The notes beneath the pieces were generated by a model. The model did not search any database. It saw nothing but the letters and a program-made list of their open reading frames with translations, and was not told where the DNA came from. A program made the position numbers and the translations under genes. This document shows positions 1 through 13,733 of a stretch of DNA of 14,395 nt, piece by piece. Every line of letters begins with the position of its first letter. Position 1 is the first letter of the stretch. The stretch is from a virus (Duplodnaviria; Heunggongvirae; Uroviricota; Caudoviricetes): the IMG/VR virus record IMGVR_UViG_2671180986_000005; one strand, written 5' to 3'.

Positions 1-2353
1 CATCGCCTGCTTCAGAAAAATCTCTGTCAGCATGGACAGCACAGAACGGGTGAAACCACGCCAGTTCTGTTCGCTGCCGATCAGCATCGCTGCCATATTC
101 TGTGCAATACCGTCAAAGGTCTGCGTGGCCGCGTTTTTAACCTGCGAAAAACTGTCCGTCGCACTTTCCGCCCACTCGCCCCAGCCGGACTTCATCCCGG
201 CCATCCAGCTTCCACGAAGCTGCTCCTCCGCAGACCAGGTGTTCTTCAGTGCAGATGTGGCCTTCGCCAGCGCAGCCGGATTATCACCGTACACCTCACG
301 AAGGCGCTGCTCTTCCGACTCCCGCTGCGCCTGACGGTCGGTGAGTCCGCGGGCTTTTGCGCTGATTGCCGCCTGCTTCGCGCTCTGCTGCTGTTCAAAC
401 CGCGCCGCCTGCTGTGCCAGCTCATTCAGCCGTTTCTGGTGTTCAATCTTGTCGCCCAGCTCAGCCAGCTGGCGTTTGTACTCCAGCGTTTCTTTCTCAT
501 GGGCCAGCAGGGATTTTTCCTGCTCAGATAACTGCCGTTTCGTGGCGGCCTCTTTCAGGACCACATACTGATTTTCCGCTTTCCATAAATCACGGCGCTG
601 CTGGCTGATTTTTTCATTCGCACCGCTGTGCTTCTCCAGCGTCCTGAGCTCAGTTTCAAGCGCCAGCAGGGCTGCATGCGCCTGGTCTTCCTGGCGCTCA
701 CCGGCAGACACCTTCACACCGGACGGCTTTTTCTGCGTCGACTCATAATCCTTTTTTGNNNNNNNNNNNNNNNNNNNNNNNNNNNNNNNNNNNNNNNNNN
801 NNNNNNNNNNNNNNNNNNNNNNNNNNNNNNNNNNNNNNNNNNNNNNNNNNNNNNNNNNNNNNNNNNNNNNNNNNNNNNNNNNNNNNNNNNNNNNNNNNNN
901 NNNNNNNNNNNNNNNNNNNNNNNNNNNNNNNNNNNNNNNNNNNNNNNNNNNNNNNNNNNNNNNNNNNNNNNNNNNNNNNNNNNNNNNNNNNNNNNNNNNN
1001 NNNNNNNNNNNNNNNNNNNNNNNNNNNNNNNNNNNNNNNNNNNNNNNNNNNNNNNNNNNNNNNNNNNNNNNNNNNNNNNNNNNNNNNNNNNNNNNNNNNN
1101 NNNNNNNNNNNNNNNNNNNNNNNNNNNNNNNNNNNNNNNNNNNNNNNNNNNNNNNNNNNNNNNNNNNNNNNNNNNNNNNNNNNNNNNNNNNNNNNNNNNN
1201 NNNNNNNAGCATATCCGCTGAGGATTCCGGACGACCGATATCCAGAATGGCATNNNNNNNNNNNNNNNNNNNNNNNNNNNNNNNNNNNNNNNNNNNNNNN
1301 NNNNNNNNNNNNNNNNNNNNNNNNNNNNNNNNNNNNNNNNNNNNNNNNNNNNNNNNNNNNNNNNNNNNNNNNNNNNNNNNNNNNNNNNNNNNNNNNNNNN
1401 NNNNNNNNNNNNNNNNNNNNNNNNNNNNNNNNNNNNNNNNNNNNNNNNNNNNNNNNNNNNNNNNNNNNNNNNNNNNNNNNNNNNNNNNNNNNNNNNNNNN
1501 NNNNNNNNNNNNNNNNNNNNNNNNNNNNNNNNNNNNNNNNNNNNNNNNNNNNNNNNNNNNNNNNNNNNNNNNNNNNNNNNNNNNNNNNNNNNNNNNNNNN
1601 NNNNNNNNNNNNNNNNNNNNNNNNNNCGGCATTCACCANNNNNNNNNNNNNNNNNNNNNNNNNNNNNNNNNNNNNNNNNNNNNNNNNNNNNNNNNNNNNN
1701 NNNNNNNNNNNNNNNNNNNNNNNNNNNNNNNNNNNNNNNNNNNNNNNNNNNNNNNNNNNNNNNNNNNNNNNNNNNNNNNNNNNNNNNNNNNNNNNNNNNN
1801 NNNNNNNNNNNNNNNNNNNNNNNNNNNNNNNNNNNNNNNNNNACAGGACCAGCATACGATCTGCCGTCAGTCCCGCCTGATTACCGGAAAGGACCAGCGT
1901 TTTGTTGAAATCGGACAGGGTTGAGTTGCCCTGATACCAGGCATACGCCAGCGCACCGGTCGCCACCGCCAGCGAGGTGGCCCCCACCATCGGCAGGGTG
2001 ATCGCGCCGGCAAGCCCCCTGAACATGGGGATCATCCCGCCGAAGGAGTCCTTAACCTGACCACCCTGTTGCAGCAGGATCAGCCAGGGATTCTGCCCCC
2101 CTGCAAGCTGCGTGGCCACGTCGGTGAACTGTGCAGGCAGCATACGCATGGCGGCTTTATACTGCCCGACGGAAATCCCCGCTTTCTGTGCAGCCAGCGC
2201 CTGTCGGCTCAGCGACTGTTCAACGACTGCCGCTGTTTTTTTCGCATCACTTTCCGTACCGGAAAAATGACGCCTGACTCTGGCCATCTGCTCGTCAAAT
2301 CTGGCCGCATCCAGACTCAAATCAACGACCAGATCGCCTACCGGTTCAGCCAT
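1..2353 (-). CDS. H: tail tape measure protein (lambda gpH-like); C-terminus beyond window start, interior masked
   Basis: ATG at 2353-2351; the unmasked first 170 aa (MAEPVGDLVVDLSLDAARFDEQ...LTADRMLVL) match my memory of lambda gpH. The start overlaps the end of the T frame by 8 nt as in lambda. Coiled-coil-like coding continues in unmasked 1-758 (e.g. KKDYESTQKKPSGVKVSAGERQ) but in a different absolute frame than the N-terminus, so frame continuity through the masked blocks is unverified. Confidence 0.8.
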
Positions 2354-2780
2354 ACCGGACTCCTCCTGCGATCCCTTCTGATACTGTCATCAGCATTACG
2401 TCATCCTCCGTCATGTCCGCCACATCCGGGGAAGCGGGGATAACTTCATTCCCGTCCGGGCCAAAGCGGACACCTCCGGCAAGCCCTGCCGCTTTCTGCA
2501 TCAGCACATCATCTTCAGGCTCTTCGTCAGCCTCGCGCCGGTTCAGCAGACTGAAATCCAGCGGATGCATCTCCGGATCGCTGAAAAACAGGCTGAGCAC
2601 GGTGTACGTCAGCCCGGAAAAGTGCATATCCAGCAGAACATCATGAAAATAATGGGTACTGTAAAAGCGGTGCCAGTCGGCATACTCCGTGGATGACATC
2701 CCGGCAAGCATGGCGCGCCAGTCGGGTCGCCCCATCTCACGCGCCAGTTTCAGGGCAAAACTCAGCTCACCGTCGAACAC
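2346..2780 (-). CDS. T: tail assembly chaperone gpT segment, expressed only as a G-T fusion by -1 ribosomal frameshift
   Basis: Track ORF 2346..2780 (MFDGELSFALKLAREMGRPDW...) in the -1 frame relative to G; slippery heptamer immediately upstream; spacing to G start equals lambda G-T length (838 nt). Confidence 0.8.
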   Translation of the reverse strand: MFDGELSFALKLAREMGRPDWRAMLAGMSSTEYADWHRFYSTHYFHDVLLDMHFSGLTYTVLSLFFSDPEMHPLDFSLLNRREADEEPEDDVLMQKAAGLAGGVRFGPDGNEVIPASPDVADMTEDDVMLMTVSEGIAGGVRYG

Positions 2781-3184
2781 TTTCCCGCAGAAACAGGCTC
2801 TGCAGGCCCGGCGTCCTCTGCCTGTTCAGGAGCATCATTCACCACAAACTCATACATACCGGACAGCCGGTACACCACGTTTTCAGCATGAGAAATTGCC
2901 TCTGTGGGCCAGGTGGTAAGCACTTCCTGCTCAATCTGTTTAACGGCTTCATTCATGGACGGCATCTGCGTCTTCTTCGGATGGTTATGCCACAGGGACA
3001 TCGCAACCACAAAAGCGCCGGTTCTGATGGCGTCTTCCACAGTAAACTTCCGGTTGCTGTCTGACTCCGCCTGTTCTGCCTGCCGTTTCATCAGGTCGAG
3101 ATGCTCAATACGCTGCAGGGCTGACAGTTCAGAAAGCGTGACGGTCACACCGTTATGTTCAAATGATTCGGTTTTCAGGAACAT
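2762..3184 (-). CDS. G: tail assembly chaperone gpG
   Basis: 140-aa ORF, ATG at 3184-3182, ends ...SAGKCSTVS; same length as lambda G; 15-nt gap after the V stop as in lambda. Confidence 0.9.
   Translation of the reverse strand: MFLKTESFEHNGVTVTLSELSALQRIEHLDLMKRQAEQAESDSNRKFTVEDAIRTGAFVVAMSLWHNHPKKTQMPSMNEAVKQIEQEVLTTWPTEAISHAENVVYRLSGMYEFVVNDAPEQAEDAGPAEPVSAGKCSTVS
2780..2786 (-). promoter_or_regulatory. programmed -1 frameshift slippery heptamer G_GGA_AAG for G-T fusion
   Basis: Minus-strand sequence tct gcg gga aag tgt tcg acg gtg agc tga: GGGAAAG sits 6 codons before the G stop (2762-2764), and the -1 frame continues into the T ORF. Confidence 0.8.
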
Positions 3185-3199
3185 CGCTGACTCTCCGGA

Positions 3200-3940
3200 T
3201 TAACTGGCGGTGACGTTGATTTCTGCAACCGCAGCAAACTCACCATTACCAGATACGACCGGAATGTTGACCTTGCCTGCAGCAACACCTTTCACGGTGA
3301 TGGTCATACCACTGACCGACACGGTGGCTTTTGTTTTATCCGCAGACACCGCACGGAAGCTCTTGTCGGTTGCGCCATCCGGCTGGAATGCCACGGTCAG
3401 CGTGGTGCTCTGCCCTTTCACTACGGAAGCACTGGCGGGTGTCACCGTCATGCCGGTCGTCGCCGTCACCGTGCTGCGATCTTCTGCCATCGACGGACGT
3501 CCCACATTGGTGACCTTCACCGTGCGGGTAATCACCTCCTTCGCCGTCACCGCCTTACCGATACTGCTGACCCAGCCACGGAACACATCGACCGTGCCGT
3601 TCGGGAAGCGGATTTTATAGGCACGGGTATCACCTTCATTAAACCACGCCAGCAGCGCCTGCTGCCCCTGCTCTCCGGGCATCCACGCCAGCGTGAAGCT
3701 GGTATCTCCGGCAGATTTCTGCCCCTGCCCGGTCGCAGTCCAGTCTGCATCTTCATCATCGAGATAGCTGTCGTCATAGGACTCAGCGGTCAGTTCGCCG
3801 GGCGTCAGGTCTTTAACTTTTGCCAGACGCGACCAGTCAACGTCTGAAAGCGGGTTCGCATAAGGGTCACCGCTCCCCTTATAAACCCACAGGGTGGTCC
3901 CGGCACCTTTCACCGGCATTGTAGGATTTGGTACAGGCAT
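3200..3940 (-). CDS. V: major tail tube protein gpV with C-terminal Ig-like domain
   Basis: 246 aa from the ATG at 3940 ([22 protein letters not shown]...); the track ORF starts 10 codons earlier at an upstream ATG inside U. C-terminal region ([21 protein letters not shown]...) looks like a Big_2/Ig-like domain. 7-nt gap after the U stop as in lambda. Confidence 0.9.
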
Positions 3941-3947
3941 AGCGTCC

Positions 3948-4343
3948 TCACATTTCATAGATAATGACATAAGTCAGATCGGCTGAACTCCACAGGCCCG
4001 CATCATCGTCGCGCCGGTAGTCATAGCCGCTGGCCACCATACTGGTGATCAAATCTGACAGTGCCGGGATATCGCTCATCACCGGATAAATCCGGGACTC
4101 CATCCACGAATCCAGCTCTGAATCCGGCACCTGAGCAGGCAGGAAAACTTCAATATGCAGCTCCGCCTGCCAGGTATCGCTGTCCAGCTCTTCGCCCGTG
4201 TATTCAGCGCCGGTGAGATAAACGGCAATTGCCGGAAAATCTTCCTCATCAAAAACAGCGGGGCGACCATCAAAAAGCGTCGCCCCGGTGTCATGCTTCT
4301 CCAGTGCATCCAGTACGGCTGCACGGAGTTCAGTATGTTTCAT
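3948..4343 (-). CDS. U: tail terminator protein gpU
   Basis: 131-aa [23 protein letters not shown]...; start codon overlaps the Z stop (ATGA) as in lambda. Confidence 0.92.
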
Positions 4344-4918
4344 CGCTTTATTACCATTCTCAGTTGATGCTGCAGCGCATAGCCCAGCTCTTTCGGAAGA
4401 CGTTCACGCCGTATCCGTTCAATATTCTGTTTAAACGCCGTGGTCAGCGGCACCGCCATCGGGATTTTCACCACATCAATGGGGTAACGGTTTTTCCCGG
4501 CCACACGCTGCATAACATGCCACCGGCCGTTTTTCAGTTGCTGAATAAACGCGCCGGGAATACGACGGTTACCCACCACAAGCACGCTGCCGCCNNNNNN
4601 NNNNNNNNNNNNNNNNNNNNNNNNNNNNNNNNNNNNNNNNNNNNNNNNNNNNNNNNNNNNNNNNNNNNNNNNNNNNNNNNNNNNNNNNNNNNNNNNNNNN
4701 NNNNNNNNNNNNNNNNNNNNNNNNNNNNNNNNNNNNNNNNNNNNNNNNNNNNNNNNNNNNNNNNNNNNNNNNNNNNNNNNNNNNNNNNNNNNNNNNNNNN
4801 NNNNNNNNNNNNNNNNNNNNNNNNNNNNNNNNNNNNNNNNNNNNNNNNNNNNNNNNNNNNNNNNNNNNNNNNNNNNNNNNNNNNNNNNNNNNNNNNNNNN
4901 NNNNNNNNNNNNNNNNNN
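4340..4918 (-). CDS. Z: tail completion protein gpZ; start lies in masked block, start coordinate estimated from lambda length (192 aa)
   Basis: Unmasked C-terminal ~84 aa (...[80 protein letters not shown]); stop at 4340-4342 overlaps the U start. Confidence 0.75.
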   Translation of the reverse strand, partial: XXXXXXXXXXXXXXXXXXXXXXXXXXXXXXXXXXXXXXXXXXXXXXXXXXXXXXXXXXXXXXXXXXXXXXXXXXXXXXXXXXXXXXXXXXXXXXXXXXXXXXXXXXXXGGSVLVVGNRRIPGAFIQQLKNGRWHVMQRVAGKNRYPIDVVKIPMAVPLTTAFKQNIERIRRERLPKELGYALQHQLRMVIKR

Positions 4919-5070
4919 NNNNNNNNNNNNNNNNNNNNNNNNNNNNNNNNNNNNNNNNNNNNNNNNNNNNNNNNNNNNNNNNNNNNNNNNNNNNNNNNNN
5001 NNNNNNNNNNNNNNNNNNNNNNNNNNNNNNNNNNNNNNNNNNNNNNNNNNNNNNNNNNNNNNNNNNNNNN

Positions 5071-5424
5071 NNNNNNNNNNNNNNNNNNNNNNNNNNNNNN
5101 NNNNNNNNNNNNNNNNNNNNNNNAACTTCCGCCATCATCCGGCGAAACCCGATCTACCCAGAAATTTTCCTCACCGATGGTCAGCGTGTCTCCACGCCGC
5201 AGCTGCCGCACCTCATCAGTCCGGACAAACAGGGACGGGCTGGAGCCTTCAACGCGCACGCCCTGTCCGGCATAGCTGATATTTTCAGGGTCATCAAAAA
5301 CACCACGTATCACCGCACCTGACTGCTCACCGGATGTCATGGTGGCTGACGTTCCCATGTACCCGCGTATCGTTTCATCGGCGCGGGCAATGGCAGCATC
5401 GAACAGGTTATCGAAATCAGCCAC
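5071..5424 (-). CDS. FII: head-tail joining protein gpFII; 3' end lies in masked block, end coordinate estimated from lambda length (117 aa)
   Basis: Unmasked N-terminal 100 aa MADFDNLFDAAIARADETIRGYMGTSA...VDRVSPDDGGS; ATG at 5424, 11 nt after the FI stop as in lambda. Confidence 0.8.
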
Positions 5425-5435
5425 AGCGCCTCCCG

Positions 5436-5834
5436 TTATTGCATTCTGGCCAGGCCGCGCTCTGTCATTTCGGCTGCCACACCGGCAGAGACACGAAACG
5501 CCGTTCCCGGCAGCACAAATGCCACAGGTTTATCCCGCGTGGCGTGAAGTGCATCAGTATGCAGCGTCACCAGTGCCACGACCGTGACCAGTTCAGCCGT
5601 ATCCTGAATCACGGTATCCGGCTGCGCTGATACCACCTCATTTTCATGCCCGGTCAGCACATTTTCCCGGCTGAGAGGGGTGTCCTGACCGGCAGTTTCA
5701 TCCGTGTCATCAAGCTCTTCTTCCAGCTCTGCCACACGAAGCGCCAGTTCTTCTTTCGTTCCCGTCAAACTGACATCGCGGTTCAATTGCTCACCCAGCT
5801 CCTGAAGACGGGCAATCAGTTCATCTTTCGTCAT
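5436..5834 (-). CDS. FI: DNA packaging / head assembly protein gpFI
   Basis: 132 aa from the ATG at 5834 (MTKDELIARLQELGEQLNRDVSLTGTKEELALRVAELEEEL...); the track ORF starts earlier at a non-ATG codon. GGAGG Shine-Dalgarno upstream. Confidence 0.9.
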   Translation of the reverse strand: MTKDELIARLQELGEQLNRDVSLTGTKEELALRVAELEEELDDTDETAGQDTPLSRENVLTGHENEVVSAQPDTVIQDTAELVTVVALVTLHTDALHATRDKPVAFVLPGTAFRVSAGVAAEMTERGLARMQ

Positions 5835-5846
5835 GAACTCCTCCAC

Positions 5847-5871
5847 AGAGAGAAAATGGCCCCGAAGGGCC
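5847..5871 (-). terminator. terminator-like hairpin in E-FI intergenic region (GGCCC-UUCG-GGGCC followed by U-rich tract)
   Basis: Minus-strand sequence after the E stop: tcatggcccttcggggccattttctctct; 5-bp GC stem with UUCG tetraloop and a U-rich tail. Likely an attenuator or mRNA-stability element in the late operon. Confidence 0.45.
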
Positions 5872-5875
5872 ATGA

Positions 5876-6901
5876 TTACGCCAGTTGAACGGACACGAAC
5901 TCATCAGGATCAGCCAGCAGCATCAGCGGTGCTGACTGAATCATGGTGAACTCACGCGCCGGATCGCCGGTGGTCACCCAGTTTTTCGGGTAACGGGCAG
6001 AGGCGTTAATGCCTTCGCGCTGTGCGTCCGCATCCTGAATGCAGCCATAGGTGCGCAGACCGCGAGCCTGAGTGTTCCCCAGCACCATCGTGTTGTCCGG
6101 CAGGAAGTTCTTTTTGACGCCGTTTTCCACGTACTGTCCGGAATACACGACGATGGCCACATCGCCATACATTCCCTTATAGGACACCGCTTTGCCCAGG
6201 TCTTTTACCGCTGTCTCCAGCTCGGAATGAGAGCCGCGACGGGTATCCAGCTTCTCCTTGACGGCTTTGAAGGAACGGAACAGCGCCCAGCCTTTCGGGT
6301 CAAACACGATGATATTCACCACACCGCTGGCGTTCAGCGCGTAGGCTTCGATATCGTCGGTCGGGTCATACGTGGACTTGTCACGCTTGCTCCACTCCGT
6401 GACGCCGGACTGTGTGATGTTGTTCGCCGCACTGCGGCCCATATCCACCTCAACCGGATCGAAGGCTTCACCGGTCATGGTGTATTTGCCCTTGAGCACG
6501 GCAGAAACTGCCTGCATCTCTTCGACCTGAGCAATGGCCAGCTCTTCGTCACGCATGTTCTGCATGATGATGCGACGGCGGCGGTAAGCCGGGTCCGCCA
6601 GATTCTGCGGATCTTCATCCGGCAGGCGACGCAGGGTCATCTGCGGATTCACCTCATGCTTGGGTTTGACATATCCCGGCGTAAATTCAGAGGTGGAGCC
6701 GCCACGGGAACGGATAACCTCACCGGAAACAATCGGCGAAACGTACAGCGCCATGTTTACCAGTCCCGGAATTTGTGAGAGATAGACTTTCTCCGTAGTG
6801 AAGGGATAGCTCTCACGGAAAAAGAGACGCAGAAACAGCGGATCAAACTTAAATTTCTGCTCATTTGCCGCCAGCAGCTGGGCGGTTGTGTACATCGACA
6901 T
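5876..6901 (-). CDS. E: major capsid protein gpE (HK97-fold)
   Basis: 341 aa from the ATG at 6901 (MSMYTTAQLLAANEQKFKFDPLFLRLFFRESYPF...SAPLMLLADPDEFVSVQLA); the track ORF is extended upstream by a non-ATG start. Confidence 0.93.
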   Translation of the reverse strand: MSMYTTAQLLAANEQKFKFDPLFLRLFFRESYPFTTEKVYLSQIPGLVNMALYVSPIVSGEVIRSRGGSTSEFTPGYVKPKHEVNPQMTLRRLPDEDPQNLADPAYRRRRIIMQNMRDEELAIAQVEEMQAVSAVLKGKYTMTGEAFDPVEVDMGRSAANNITQSGVTEWSKRDKSTYDPTDDIEAYALNASGVVNIIVFDPKGWALFRSFKAVKEKLDTRRGSHSELETAVKDLGKAVSYKGMYGDVAIVVYSGQYVENGVKKNFLPDNTMVLGNTQARGLRTYGCIQDADAQREGINASARYPKNWVTTGDPAREFTMIQSAPLMLLADPDEFVSVQLA

Positions 6902-6913
6902 AAAAAAATCCCG

Positions 6914-6936
6914 TAAAAAAAGCCGCACAGGCGGCC
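6914..6936 (-). terminator. terminator-like hairpin in D-E intergenic region
   Basis: Minus-strand ggccgcctgtgcggc followed by ttttttt, then acgggattttttt and the E ATG; 5-bp GC stem, 4-nt loop, T7 run. Confidence 0.45.
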
Positions 6937-6956
6937 TTTAGTGATGAAGGGTAAAG

Positions 6957-7289
6957 TTAAACGATGCTGATTGCCGTTCCGGCAAACGCGGTCCGTTTTT
7001 TCGTCTCGTCGCTGGCAGCCTCCGGCCAGAGCACATCCTCATAACGGAACGTGCCGGACTTGTAGAACGTCAGTGTGGTGCTGGTCTGGTCAGCAGCAAC
7101 CGCAAGAATGCCAACGGCAGCACCGTCGGTGGTGCCATCCCACGCAACCAGCTTACGGGTGGAGGTGTCCAGCATCAGCGGGGTCATTGCAGGCGCTTTC
7201 GCACTCAATCCGCCGGGCGCGGTTGCGGTATGAGCCGGGTCACTATTGCCCAGCGGCTGGTAATGGGNNNNNNNNNNNNNNNNNNNNNN
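6957..7289 (-). CDS. D: head decoration protein gpD; first ~7 codons lie in masked block, start estimated from 110-aa lambda length
   Basis: Unmasked portion reads ...[82 protein letters not shown]; stop at 6957-6959; 56-nt gap to the E start as in lambda. Confidence 0.85.
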
Positions 7290-7298
7290 NNNNNNNNN

Positions 7299-7941
7299 NN
7301 NNNNNNNNNNNNNNNNNNNNNNNNNNNNNNNNNNNNNNNNNNNNNNNNNNNNNNNNNNNNNNNNNNNNNNNNNNNNNNNNNNNNNNNNNNNNNNNNNNNN
7401 NNNNNNNNNNNNNNNNNNNNNNNNNNNNNNNNNNNNNNNNNNNNNNNNNNNNNNNNNNNNNNNNNNNNNNNNNNNNNNNNNNNNNNNNNNNNNNNNNNNN
7501 NNNNNNNNNNNNNNNNNNNNNNNNNNNNNNNNNNNNNNNNNNNNNNNNNNNNNNNNNNNNNNNNNNNNNNNNNNNNNNNNNNNNNNNNNNNNNNNNNNNN
7601 NNNNNNNNNNNNNNNNNNNNNNNNNNNNNNNNNNNNNNNNNNNNNNNNNNNNNCGTCGCTTGCACCACGCCAGTAACGTCAGCCTGCGAAGCAGTGGCTG
7701 AAACAGTTGTTGATTGAGTCTCTTTGGTCATTCGCCCTCCTGAGAGACGGGATTTACGTGCATCCAGTGCATCACGCATGACGGTGATCGCATCGGTACT
7801 GTTAACAAGTTCATCAGCCAGTCCGGCATCAATGGCCTCCTGACCGCTGTACACTGCAGCCTCGGTATCCAGCACAGCCTGCACGGACAGGCCGGTATAT
7901 GCCGACACCTTCTGTGCAAACATCCGGCGGGTTGCATCCAT
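7299..7941 (-). CDS. nu3: scaffolding protein Nu3, internal in-frame start within the C reading frame (position inferred from lambda Nu3 offset)
   Basis: In-frame Met (MDATRRMFAQKVSAYTGLSV...) at the position corresponding to the lambda Nu3 start as I recall it; the C-terminal part is masked. Confidence 0.45.
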
Positions 7942-8346
7942 CCGGGACTGCAATGTTTCCCGGACATCATCCGGTAGATGGCTGTAGGGGTTGCCATCCA
8001 CCTTATGGCTGCCGCTGTAAATCAGCGTGATTTCCACGCCCTGTTTCTCCAGTGCAGCGCCGTAATTACTGTGAGCCATCATGACGCCGATGGAGCCTGT
8101 CCGGGCGGTCTGCGTGACCAGACGCCGGGAGGCGGCACTGGCAAGCAGCTGACCTGCGCTGCAGTTCATGTCATTGGCCAGCGCCCATACCGGCTTTATG
8201 TCACGCACACGGGCGATGATGTCAGCGCAGTCAAATGCTCCCGCCACCATTCCGCCCGGTGTGTCCATATCGAGCAGAATGCCGTCCACCATCGGGTCGC
8301 TGGCAGCCTGTTGCAGACGGGCGATAATGCCGTTGTAACCGGTCAT
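7299..8346 (-). CDS. C: head maturation protease gpC (S49/ClpP-like), C-terminal fragment downstream of a frameshift; 3' end masked and estimated
   Basis: ORF starting at the ATG at 8346 (MTGYNGIIARLQQAASDPMVDGILLDMDTPGGMVAGAFDCADIIARVRD...TGSIGVMMAHSNYGAALEKQGVEITLIYSGSHKVDG...), an S49-like protease core; continues into masked block 7268-7653. Confidence 0.75.
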
Positions 8347-8616
8347 CCCCGAGTACGGCTGACCAGCGTGCCGGACACCGGCAGCACGGCGATGCCGTTC
8401 ATTACCTGATAACTGCGGGCCTGTCGTGGTCCGTCATCATCACCGGATAACGCCAGCGCCGCGGGTGCCTCTCCGGCAGTCAGGCTGTCGCCGGATACTG
8501 CATCCGTCAGGCAGCTGATCCCAAGCTGGCCTGCAAGCGCACAAAAGAAAACCCGCGCATAGGCGGGTTCAAGCATCAGCGGCTCATTAAAAGCCNNNNN
8601 NNNNNNNNNNNNNNNN

Positions 8617-8636
<20 letters not shown>
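8343..8636 (-). CDS. C: gpC N-terminal fragment upstream of the frameshift; start in masked block, estimated
   Basis: Unmasked ...AFNEPLMLEPAYARVFFCALAGQLGISCLTDAVSGDSLTAGEAPAALALSGDDDGPRQARSYQVMNGIAVLPVSGTLVSRTRG then TGA at 8343-8345, overlapping the ATG of the downstream fragment (ATGA). Confidence 0.7.
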
Positions 8637-12380
<3,744 letters not shown>

Positions 12381-13253: not shown

Positions 13254-13376
13254 NNNNNNNNNNNNNNNNNNNNNNNNNNNNNNNNNNNNNNNNNNNNNNN
13301 NNNNNNNNNNNNNNNNNNNNNNNNNNNNNNNNNNNNNNNNNNNNNNNNNNNNNNNNNNNNNNNNNNNNNNNACGAA

Positions 13377-13486
13377 ATGATAATTATTATCATCTATATA
13401 AGGTTTATCACAACATGTGTGTACGCCATCAAACCACGAGAAATAATCAATTATGACGCAGGTATCGTATTAATTGATCTGCATCA
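13377..13486. repeat. cos-flank element copy 2, begins with palindrome ATGATAATTATTATCAT
   Basis: About 85 percent identical to copy 1 with small indels in the middle; preceded by masked block 13254-13371. Confidence 0.7.
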
Positions 13487-13547
13487 ACTTAACGTAAAAA
13501 CAACTTCAGACAATACAAATCAGCGACACTGAATACAGGGCAACCTC

Positions 13548-13733
13548 ATGTCAACGAAGAACAGAACCCGCAGAACAACAACCCGCAACATCCGATTTCC
13601 AAACCAGATGATTGAACAAATTAACATCGCTCTTGATCTGAAAGGTTCAGGAAACTTTTCAGCGTGGGTTATTGAAGCCTGCAGAAGAAGGCTGTCAACA
13701 GAGAGTTCGGGTATGAATTACATAATTAAGTAA
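13548..13733 (+). CDS. small basic protein (61 aa) with ribbon-helix-helix-like pattern; possibly a YlcI/YnfO-type (DUF3950-like) cos-adjacent prophage protein
   Basis: ATG with AGGG 7 nt upstream; MSTKNRTRRTTTRNIRFPNQMIEQINIALDLKGSGNFSAWVIEACRRRLSTESSGMNYIIK: basic N-tail, then RNIRFP (beta strand), NQMIEQINIAL (helix), glycine turn, AWVIEACRRRL (helix), as in Arc/CopG-type proteins. Family assignment is from memory, not a search. Confidence 0.55.
   Translation: MSTKNRTRRTTTRNIRFPNQMIEQINIALDLKGSGNFSAWVIEACRRRLSTESSGMNYIIK

What the first reader, a model, noticed from the sequence alone, without database searches (positions are those of the whole stretch)
8330..8365. Head protease gene C is split by a frameshift into two ORFs with an ATGA junction
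The N-terminal C frame ends ...VSGTLVSRTRG then TGA at 8343-8345, and the protease core restarts in another frame at the ATG at 8346 (MTGYNGII...). The residues just upstream in that second frame (..QPYSG) are what lambda gpC has before MTGY as I recall it (..SRTRALQPYSGMTGY), so the window looks like lambda with 19 bp removed between two copies of CAGCCGTAC. This either inactivates C, marking a defective prophage, or gives a two-gene arrangement coupled through the ATGA overlap.
Basis: partly seen in the sequence, partly recalled or inferred. Interest (0 to 1): 0.5.

Follow-up and report, generated by a model that had tools for sequence, protein, structure and literature searches.

The report
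Frameshifted head protease gene in prophage
A lambda-like prophage of Shigella sonnei has lost 19 bases from its head-maturation protease gene C, which splits the gene in two; this is a real but recent and rare mutation, most likely an ordinary young pseudogene in a decaying prophage.

Summary
On the minus strand, gene C (the lambda gpC head-maturation protease) stops at TGA 8345-8343 after ...VSGTLVSRTRG. It restarts one base out of frame at ATG 8346-8344 (MTGYNGII...).

Alignment with lambda and E. coli prophages shows exactly 19 bp missing. The flanking copies are imperfect, CAGCCGgAC and CAGCCGtAC, so only 6 bp repeat exactly.

The deletion is not a sequencing error. The same junction and the same 97-aa and 336-aa products occur in several independent Shigella sonnei assemblies, two of them Logan assemblies of public sequencing runs.

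It is a derived, minority allele. The intact 439-aa protein, identical except for the 7 missing residues, is indexed about 200 times more often in S. sonnei. Complete S. sonnei genomes match the C segment of the window exactly apart from the 19-bp gap. No phage record and no complete E. coli genome examined carries it.

The split separates a conserved N-terminal region and the first strand of the SppA-like protease fold from the catalytic Ser/Lys core. The downstream ATG has no usable ribosome-binding site. The ATGA already exists in intact genes.

The prophage also carries IS insertions in its late region. Verdict: an ordinary, recent loss-of-function deletion. Function was inferred, not tested.

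The parts
8343..8595 (-). Readable part of the N-terminal fragment of gene C (residues 15-97 plus the TGA stop). The first 14 codons and the GTG start lie in the N-run 8596-9070.
   Evidence: Translation ends ...NGIAVLPVSGTLVSRTRG*. Gap-free identical contigs give a 97-aa product. It matches PHROG 53 'head maturation protease' profile positions 1-91. It has no Pfam or NCBIfam domain of its own.
8353..8361 (-). Deletion junction: the single remaining copy, CAGCCGTAC. Intact alleles read CAGCCGGACGCGGGCGCTGCAGCCGTAC here, which is 19 nt longer.
   Evidence: Alignment with lambda and E. coli. Regex comparison of 21 loci: all S. sonnei split contigs have the 9-mer and all intact loci have the 28-mer.
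8343..8346 (-). ATGA overlap: ATG (native Met104 codon of gpC) at 8346-8344 and TGA (stop of the shifted upstream frame) at 8345-8343.
   Evidence: Sequence. In intact alleles the same ATGA is present, and the frame holding the TGA is open for only 72 nt upstream.
7654..8346 (-). Readable part (231 of 336 codons) of the C-terminal fragment. It holds the S49/SppA-like core, with catalytic Ser (lambda S166, codon 8160-8158) and Lys (lambda K218, codon 8004-8002). The true stop lies inside the N-run 7268-7653.
   Evidence: Translation. Pfam Peptidase_S49 at fragment residues 47-194, E 6e-44. TIGR00706 SppA_dom covers only model positions 20-204 of 208. S166 and K218 are invariant in 24 homologues. 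The residue mapping comes from the alignment with B. subtilis SppA 3RST.
7654..7941 (-). Start of the nested scaffold gene Nu3. This is an in-frame internal ATG at 7941-7939, equal to gpC Met239. It is untouched by the deletion.
   Evidence: Lambda annotation has nu3 at 5132-5737 inside C at 4418-5737. The ATG was found at the equivalent position. PHROG 8940 'capsid assembly protein' matches residues 239-439.
9071..10281 (-). Portal gene B (readable part), directly upstream of C and overlapping its start. It is context showing the lambda gene order Nu1-A-W-B-C/Nu3-D-E.
   Evidence: 98% identity to lambda nt 13-4046. Gene tables of identical S. sonnei contigs.

Best explanation
The window comes from a lambda-like prophage of Shigella sonnei. 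In one sub-lineage, 19 bp were lost from gene C. The most likely cause is slipped-strand mispairing during replication between the short direct repeats CAGCCG(G)AC and CAGCCG(T)AC.

The loss shifts the reading frame after Arg96. Translation adds one Gly and stops at the TGA that overlaps the native Met104 codon. The result is a 97-residue N-terminal peptide. The rest of C forms a 336-codon ORF with no ribosome-binding site of its own.

The nested scaffold gene Nu3 keeps its own start and should still be made. Full-length gpC cannot be made by normal translation. It is the protease that processes the portal, the scaffold and other head proteins in lambda, and it is essential there. The prophage should therefore be unable to mature heads by itself.

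Shown here:
- The deletion and its frame consequences.
- That it is real, derived, rare and confined to S. sonnei.
- That the cut falls in conserved sequence, between the first strand of the SppA-like fold and the rest.
- That the prophage already carries IS elements in its late region.

Inferred:
- The slippage mechanism.
- Loss of protease activity.
- That the mutation was neutral because the prophage was already compromised.
For: (1) The 19-nt gap is the only difference. The C segment of the window has 0 mismatches to three complete S. sonnei genomes apart from the gap. Split contig L007 differs from CP029794 by 1 mismatch plus 20 gap positions over 15,065 nt.

(2) The allele is derived and rare.
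- The reconstructed intact protein exists exactly as 'S49 family peptidase [Shigella sonnei]'. It is on at least 1000 contigs (counter capped) and in 7802 index blocks.
- The split products are on 26 and 34 contigs and in 40 blocks.

(3) The deletion is real. The identical junction is in 6 NCBI S. sonnei assemblies, two Logan assemblies of public sequencing runs (ERR5979253, SRR19126783) and one IMG/VR contig.

(4) It was found nowhere else.
- In the 496-nt search the best E. coli identity was 96.1%, no record reached 99%, and 39 of the 40 listed hits span 515 nt. The exception, H47 at 503 nt, has a different 12-nt in-frame deletion.
- In the 70-nt junction search all 15 listed best hits are two pieces spanning 89 nt, which is 70 plus 19.
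- None of 50,697 phage records reaches 95% identity.
- The junction 26-mer had 0 hits in genome contigs and 0 in metagenome contigs.

(5) The cut falls in constrained sequence.
- gpC residues 81-298 align with solved B. subtilis SppA from its residue 4 (E 4e-22).
- The intact protein covers SppA_dom model positions 2-204, while the C-fragment covers only 20-204.
- In 24 homologues at 74-88% identity, residues 1-45 are 93% conserved, 80-96 are 95% conserved, and 5 of the 7 deleted residues are invariant.
- All homologues at 73-87% identity are single 441-447-aa proteins.

(6) C is essential in lambda (PMC10695390 Table 1: EOP below 2e-7, and the literature it cites).

(7) There is no independent start signal. 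Only GGGG sits directly against the ATG (spacing 0, -4.5 kcal/mol). The real C start has GAGGAGGAG at spacing 5 (-12 kcal/mol).

(8) The prophage is already decaying. IS1 lies between the porin gene and the holin gene. An IS3-family element lies between the lysis block and nu1. Both are present with intact and with split C.
Against: - No functional test was possible. All other head and tail genes of the split-allele contigs are intact, so the prophage is not visibly degraded beyond the IS insertions and this deletion.
- The C-fragment keeps the whole Pfam S49 domain and both catalytic residues. The ATGA overlap could allow some termination-reinitiation.
- The downstream frame is the -1 frame. 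The last sense codon lies in the run C GGG GA before a UGA stop, so a low level of tRNA-Gly slippage cannot be excluded (reasoning from sequence only).
- A co-resident lambdoid prophage might supply protease in trans. A second Z-U-V set at 79% identity is present in L007.
- The structure model was too poor (pLDDT 39.9) to show how much of the fold the N-fragment contributes.
Confidence: 0.88

Rival explanations
1. Functional two-gene arrangement. Ribosomes that terminate at the TGA reinitiate at the overlapping ATG. They make a 336-residue protease-scaffold protein that lacks the first 103 residues. That protein is active either alone or together with the 97-residue N-terminal peptide.
For: There is an ATGA stop/start overlap. 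The C-fragment keeps the Pfam S49 domain and the invariant Ser166 and Lys218. The split falls in a segment aligned with a loop-like, gapped stretch of SppA.
Against: - The ATGA pre-exists in all intact alleles and is simply the first stop in that frame.
- There is no Shine-Dalgarno sequence at a usable distance.
- The arrangement is a rare derived allele of one species, with no diverged relative sharing it.
- The severed N-terminal region, the first strand and the deleted residues are among the most conserved parts of the protein.
- The SppA domain model loses its first ~18 positions.
Confidence: 0.05
2. Leaky frame restoration. A -1 slip of the P-site tRNA-Gly on G-GGA next to the slow UGA-C stop puts some ribosomes into the downstream frame. 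This yields a near full-length gpC lacking six residues (ALQPYS). Because only a few gpC copies are needed per procapsid, that could be enough.
For: The downstream frame is the -1 frame of the upstream one, and the last sense codon GGA is preceded by G (sequence). A natural E. coli allele, annotated as an intact S49 peptidase, has a 4-residue in-frame deletion right beside the site. Small deletions here therefore do occur in alleles that remain open; whether that allele is functional is unknown.
Against: - There is no canonical X XXY YYZ slippery heptamer (sequence).
- The 81 nt after the stop fold no better than shuffles (z +0.85).
- Five of the seven residues that the deletion removes from the encoded protein are invariant in homologues. 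Five of the six that would be missing from a slipped product (L98, Q99, P100, Y101, S102) are invariant or at least 90% conserved.
- Such slippage is typically around a percent or less (general knowledge, not tested).
Confidence: 0.03
3. Sequencing or assembly artefact. The true genome keeps the 19 bp.
For: The window is a gapped or masked draft sequence whose N-runs have the wrong lengths. Its far ends look like they come from another prophage type.
Against: - The identical junction occurs in at least 8 separate records, including two Logan assemblies of public sequencing runs.
- A 19-nt loss between 6-bp repeats is not a homopolymer-type error, and the repeat is far shorter than assembler k-mers (inference).
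Confidence: 0.02

Closest known systems
Bacteriophage lambda gpC (head-maturation protease, S49 family) with the nested scaffold gene Nu3
   Same: The gene order is the same (Nu1-A-W-B-C/Nu3-D-E), with 94-98% nucleotide identity. The intact S. sonnei allele is 98% identical in protein. It has the same S49 domain, the same Ser166 and Lys218, and the same internal Nu3 start.
   Different: 19 nt are missing, so C is read as a 97-aa peptide plus a separate 336-codon ORF, and seven residues (ALQPYSG) are lost.
Signal peptide peptidase SppA of Bacillus subtilis (PDB 3RST/4KWB), the solved relative of the protease domain
   Same: gpC residues 81-298 align with SppA chain residues 4-226 (E 4e-22). The catalytic Ser aligns. 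gpC Lys218 aligns with the position that carries Ala in the crystallised chain. From memory, not checked here, that chain is the K199A mutant.
   Different: gpC has an extra conserved 80-residue N-terminal region and a C-terminal scaffold domain. In the window the first strand of the shared fold is encoded on a separate ORF.
The stf frameshift of laboratory lambda compared with Ur-lambda (a structural gene broken by a frameshift)
   Same: A frameshift in a lambda structural gene, present in one lineage and absent from the ancestral form (PMC12617516 introduction: a frameshift mutation prevents synthesis and assembly of the side fibres).
   Different: stf is dispensable for plaque formation, whereas C is essential in lambda (PMC10695390 Table 1). 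The stf change is a laboratory-strain mutation, whereas this one sits in a natural S. sonnei sub-lineage.
Cryptic lambdoid prophages of E. coli and Shigella, such as DLP12-type elements with IS insertions
   Same: The upstream region has the DLP12-type gene set (rusA, ylcG, quuD, porin, essD, rrrD, rzpD, nohD) in E. coli relatives. In S. sonnei it carries IS1 and IS3-family insertions. Other degenerate C alleles are common in databases.
   Different: Here the whole head and tail module is still present and otherwise intact, so decay is at an early stage.

Membership tests
Lambda-type S49 head-maturation protease (gpC; PHROG 53; Pfam PF01343) | Significant match to the Peptidase_S49 / head maturation protease profiles | tested here: met
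   The C-fragment matches PF01343 at E 6e-44. PHROG 53 matches at E 5e-143 for the C-fragment and 1e-30 for the N-fragment.
Lambda-type S49 head-maturation protease (gpC; PHROG 53; Pfam PF01343) | Catalytic Ser/Lys pair, equivalent to SppA Ser147/Lys199 | tested here: met
   Ser166 and Lys218 (lambda numbering) are present in the readable window sequence and invariant in 24 homologues. The SppA residue numbers are from memory.
Lambda-type S49 head-maturation protease (gpC; PHROG 53; Pfam PF01343) | Position between the portal and decoration/major capsid genes, with the in-frame nested scaffold gene Nu3 | tested here: met
   Gene order from lambda annotation and from identical gap-free contigs. 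The Nu3 ATG is at window 7941.
Lambda-type S49 head-maturation protease (gpC; PHROG 53; Pfam PF01343) | One uninterrupted ORF of about 439-447 codons covering the N-terminal region, the protease and the scaffold domain | tested here: not met
   A stop follows codon 97 and the remainder is in the -1 frame. All diverged homologues are single proteins. The locus is therefore a disrupted copy of a family member, not a functional member.
Pseudogene formed by a short deletion between direct repeats | An intact ancestral allele exists that is otherwise identical | tested here: met
   The exact intact protein is in S. sonnei. There are 0 mismatches in the C segment apart from the gap.
Pseudogene formed by a short deletion between direct repeats | Short direct repeats flank the lost segment | tested here: met
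   CAGCCGGAC ... CAGCCGTAC in all intact loci, with one copy left in all split loci.
Pseudogene formed by a short deletion between direct repeats | Restricted to one lineage and in the minority | tested here: met
   40 versus 7802 index blocks. Named only from S. sonnei. Not found in the E. coli complete genomes, phage records, genome contigs or metagenome contigs searched. Monophyly of the carriers was not tested.
Pseudogene formed by a short deletion between direct repeats | Loss of the gene's function | not testable with these tools
   Inferred from the frameshift, from conservation and from the essentiality of C in lambda (PMC10695390). It needs induction or complementation experiments.
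Translationally coupled gene pair (ATGA overlap) | Stop and start codons overlap | tested here: met
   ATGA at 8346-8343.
Translationally coupled gene pair (ATGA overlap) | The arrangement is conserved in diverged relatives | tested here: not met
   No split in the phage records, in the E. coli genomes searched, or in the 73-87% identical homologues. The ATGA is a by-product of the ancestral sequence.
Translationally coupled gene pair (ATGA overlap) | Ribosome-binding sequence at a workable distance from the downstream start | tested here: not met
   Only GGGG at spacing 0, -4.5 kcal/mol.
Programmed -1 ribosomal frameshift (as in lambda G/GT) | Slippery heptamer X XXY YYZ | tested here: not met
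   The sequence is U CGG GGA UGA, where only the Gly codon can re-pair in the -1 frame.
Programmed -1 ribosomal frameshift (as in lambda G/GT) | Stimulatory RNA structure downstream | tested here: not met
   The 81 nt downstream fold at -21.2 kcal/mol against a shuffle mean of -23.9 (z +0.85).

The most novel reading that the evidence does not exclude
The split allele is not dead. One possibility is that reinitiation at the ATGA or -1 slippage at G-GGA-UGA supplies enough working protease for the prophage to stay viable. That would show that the conserved first 103 residues, or the covalent link to them, are dispensable for lambda head maturation. A second possibility is that the free 97-residue N-terminal peptide interferes with head assembly of superinfecting lambdoid phages. 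None of this was tested, and nothing in the data points to it beyond the intact state of the other morphogenesis genes.
Probability: 0.06. Interest if true: 0.35.

Novelty: already known. Interest (0 to 1): 0.1.

Why it matters
It matters little beyond annotation. The two ORFs should be labelled as one frameshifted pseudogene of the gpC head protease, not as two 'minor capsid protein C' genes. The 19-bp deletion could serve as a simple marker for one S. sonnei sub-lineage.

It is also a clean, nearly isogenic example of an early step in prophage decay. There is a single lesion in an essential head gene, and every other head and tail gene is still open. The pair of alleles would be convenient material for anyone asking what the conserved N-terminal region of gpC does.

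Tried and rejected
- Junction 26-mer scans: 0 matches in genome contigs and 0 in metagenome contigs. Only one IMG/VR contig matched. This is probably because genome contigs holds one genome per species.
- The lambda gpC protease paper (Medina et al. 2010, PubMed 20620152) is not held. One literature query was malformed. What is said about gpC comes from papers that cite it.
- CP032523 is not in the annotated collections. Its species name comes from the protein record AYE47802.1.
- An AlphaFold2 model of the intact protein, built from 24 close homologues, gave mean pLDDT 39.9 and pTM 0.38. It is too poor to use. Its secondary-structure pattern (strand 82-88, coil 89-106, helix 107-119) agrees with the SppA alignment but carries no weight, and no fold search was run on it.
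- Programmed frameshifting was considered and rejected: there is no slippery heptamer and no downstream structure.
- A designed ATGA coupling was rejected because the ATGA pre-exists and is the first stop in that frame.
- The mechanical ORF lengths across the N-runs were rejected as artefacts.
- A search for papers on S. sonnei lambda-type prophage pseudogenes returned nothing specific to this locus.

Full report
**What is in the window**

The window is the left arm of a lambda-like prophage, with the genes on the minus strand. Its reverse complement matches lambda nucleotides 13-11052 at 94-98% identity, in the order Nu1, A, W, B, C/Nu3, D, E and onward to H.

Seven runs of N interrupt it. 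These runs are not length-faithful. The 475 N at 8596-9070 stand for 412 nt in lambda and in gap-free relatives, and the 386 N at 7268-7653 stand for 349 nt. The ORFs that the ORF listing reports across them (258 aa and 367 aa) are therefore artefacts.

**The observation**

Read on the minus strand, the C frame ends ...NGIAVLPVSGTLVSRTRG then TGA at 8345-8343. An ORF in the -1 frame begins at ATG 8346-8344 with MTGYNGIIARLQQAASDP....

A three-way alignment with lambda and an E. coli prophage shows a single 19-nt gap:
- Intact: GGT CAGCCGGAC GCGGGCGCTG CAGCCGTAC TCGG
- Window: GGT CAGCCGTAC TCGG

The flanking repeat is 6 bp exact and 8 of 9 overall, not a perfect 9-mer. On gap-free contigs that are 100% identical to the readable parts of the window, the two products are 97 and 336 residues.

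**Source, and whether the deletion is real**

The junction 26-mer was absent from genome contigs and metagenome contigs. It was present in one IMG/VR contig.

Both exact products are in NCBI as 'minor capsid protein C [Shigella sonnei]', on 26 and 34 contigs. The 336-residue product is indexed in 40 blocks. The places shown come from six NCBI S. sonnei assemblies and two Logan assemblies of public sequencing runs. All of them carry the same junction.

This rules out a one-off sequencing or assembly error.

**A derived, rare allele**

I rebuilt the ancestral protein as N-fragment through SRTR, plus ALQPYSG, plus the C-fragment. It exists exactly, named 'S49 family peptidase [Shigella sonnei]' and 'MULTISPECIES [Shigella]'. 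It is on at least 1000 contigs (the counter is capped) and in 7802 index blocks, 85 of them with contigs above 1 Mb.

Three complete S. sonnei genomes (CP104423, CP029794, CP035008) match the C segment of the window with no mismatch other than the 19-nt gap. Split contig L007 differs from CP029794 by 1 mismatch and 20 gap positions in 15,065 nt.

The deletion was not found elsewhere:
- In the 496-nt search of 5,426 complete E. coli genomes, the best identity is 96.1% and no record reaches 99%. Of the 40 listed hits, 39 span 515 nt against the 496-nt query. The exception, H47 at 503 nt, has a different 12-nt in-frame deletion beside the site.
- In the 70-nt junction search, all 15 listed best hits are two pieces spanning 89 nt.
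- None of 50,697 phage records reaches 95% identity.

The deletion therefore arose recently inside S. sonnei, on a prophage that is otherwise unchanged.

**What the deletion does to the protein**

Lambda gpC residues 81-298 align with the solved B. subtilis SppA protease starting at chain residue 4 (E 4e-22). The NCBIfam SppA domain model is covered from position 2 by the intact protein but only from position 20 by the C-fragment.

The first strand of the shared fold (IAVLPVSGTL) therefore stays on the 97-residue peptide. The catalytic Ser166 and Lys218 stay on the downstream ORF.

In 24 homologues at 74-88% identity from Citrobacter, Enterobacter, Leclercia and Hafnia:
- Residues 1-45 are 93% conserved.
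- Residues 80-96 are 95% conserved.
- Five of the seven deleted residues are invariant.
- The segment 46-79 and the linker 299-350 vary freely.

All of these homologues are single proteins of 441-447 residues. C is essential for lambda growth (PMC10695390 Table 1, EOP below 2e-7). gpC is described as the protease that processes gpE, gpB and gpFII and cleaves itself (PMC12617516, citing Medina et al. 2010).

An AlphaFold2 model built from these close homologues was too poor to add anything (pLDDT 39.9).

**Is the ATGA junction a designed coupling?**

No. The ATGA (Met104 followed by Thr ACC) is present in every intact allele. In the intact gene, the frame that contains this TGA is open for only 72 nt upstream, so any shift into that frame within that stretch must end there.

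The downstream ATG has only GGGG directly against it (spacing 0, -4.5 kcal/mol). The true C start has GAGGAGGAG at spacing 5 (-12 kcal/mol). Some termination-reinitiation is possible in principle but is not supported by conservation.

A programmed -1 frameshift is also unsupported. There is no X XXY YYZ heptamer, and the downstream 81 nt fold no better than shuffles (z +0.85). A low level of P-site slippage of tRNA-Gly on G-GGA before the UGA cannot be excluded from sequence alone.

**State of the prophage**

On the split-allele contigs every other morphogenesis gene is called at full length: Nu1, A, W, B, D, E, FI, FII, Z, U, V, G, T, H, M, L, K, I and J. The nested Nu3 start is untouched.

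The S. sonnei version of the prophage carries two insertions, with either C allele:
- An IS1 (768 bp, InsA/InsB) between the porin gene and the holin gene.
- An IS3-family element (424-residue transposase) between the lysis block and DUF1398/nu1.

The split-allele contigs break inside the second element. Some complete S. sonnei genomes lack a portal or terminase call, or have a split H, although these may be sequencing errors. The picture is a prophage in early decay, and the C deletion is one more step in one sub-lineage.

**Verdict**

This is a real 19-bp deletion between short direct repeats, most plausibly from replication slippage. It frameshifts the gpC head-maturation protease gene of a lambda-like S. 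sonnei prophage.

It is a recent, rare, lineage-restricted loss-of-function allele: an ordinary young pseudogene. The two-gene reading and the leaky-frameshift reading remain formally possible at a few percent each. Functional loss is inferred, not shown.

Interest is low. The main uses are correct annotation, a possible lineage marker, and a ready-made near-isogenic pair for probing the N-terminal region of gpC.

Noticed in passing
window 759-1207, 1254-1626, 1639-1842, 4595-5123, 7268-7653, 8596-9070, 13254-13371: Seven N-runs whose lengths do not equal the sequence they replace (for example 475 N for 412 nt, 386 N for 349 nt and 529 N for 388 nt). They behave like scaffold gaps of estimated size or like masks. 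ORFs called across them are artefacts.
   Followed up: partly
window 1-756 (minus strand, 3' part of tape-measure gene H): This stretch is only 77% identical to the H gene of the other S. sonnei contigs and of lambda. It is 97.6% identical to H of Escherichia phage PhiR5_1. The window's H is therefore either a mosaic or a scaffold join between two different lambdoid prophages.
   Followed up: partly
window 13375-13682 (upstream of nu1; DUF3950-type ORF at 13548-13733 +): This region matches most S. sonnei contigs at only 91% and in a position that overlaps the next segment. One contig matches a nearby stretch at 100%. L005 has two DUF3950 genes. This suggests a local duplication or variable copy upstream of cos/nu1.
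   Followed up: no
L013 (CP032523.1) 3388-4155 and 6938-8211; L022 1-393; L004 1-131: The S. sonnei form of the prophage has an IS1 between the nmpC-like porin gene and the holin gene. It also has an IS3-family element between the KilA-N/lysis block and DUF1398-nu1. Both lie inside the late region. Draft contigs break at the second one.
   Followed up: partly
L025 (E. coli 99_0288, NZ_CP074769.1) gene C codons 90-93: An in-frame 12-nt deletion removes TLVS right next to the 19-nt deletion site. The gene is annotated as an intact S49 peptidase. This GC-rich stretch with many short repeats may be a local deletion hot spot.
   Followed up: partly
P0104, P0097, P0099 (database relatives of gpC): Other degenerate C alleles are common. 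These include a 359-residue form truncated at both ends with 4297 member sequences, a form with a frameshifted C-terminus, and one with the linker deleted. PHROG families phrog_24209 (begins exactly at Met104), phrog_20963 and phrog_4759 also look like fragments of gpC from broken genes in phage records.
   Followed up: no
L007 (CXDM01000046.1) 14511-16819; L006 15235-16450: In some split-allele contigs the tail module is rearranged. In L007 a shortened L (190 aa) is followed by a second Z-U-V set that is only 79% identical to the first. In L006 there are two L-like genes. This could be recombination between two resident lambdoid prophages or a mis-assembly.
   Followed up: no
L023 (CP029794.1) 8423-10001; L024 (CP035008.1) 6321-8216 and 16125-18684: Complete S. 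sonnei genomes with an intact C show other missing or split calls. CP029794 has no portal call. CP035008 has no terminase A call and has H in two pieces. These go with 1-2 nt indels relative to the window. They could be independent decay or long-read sequencing errors.
   Followed up: no
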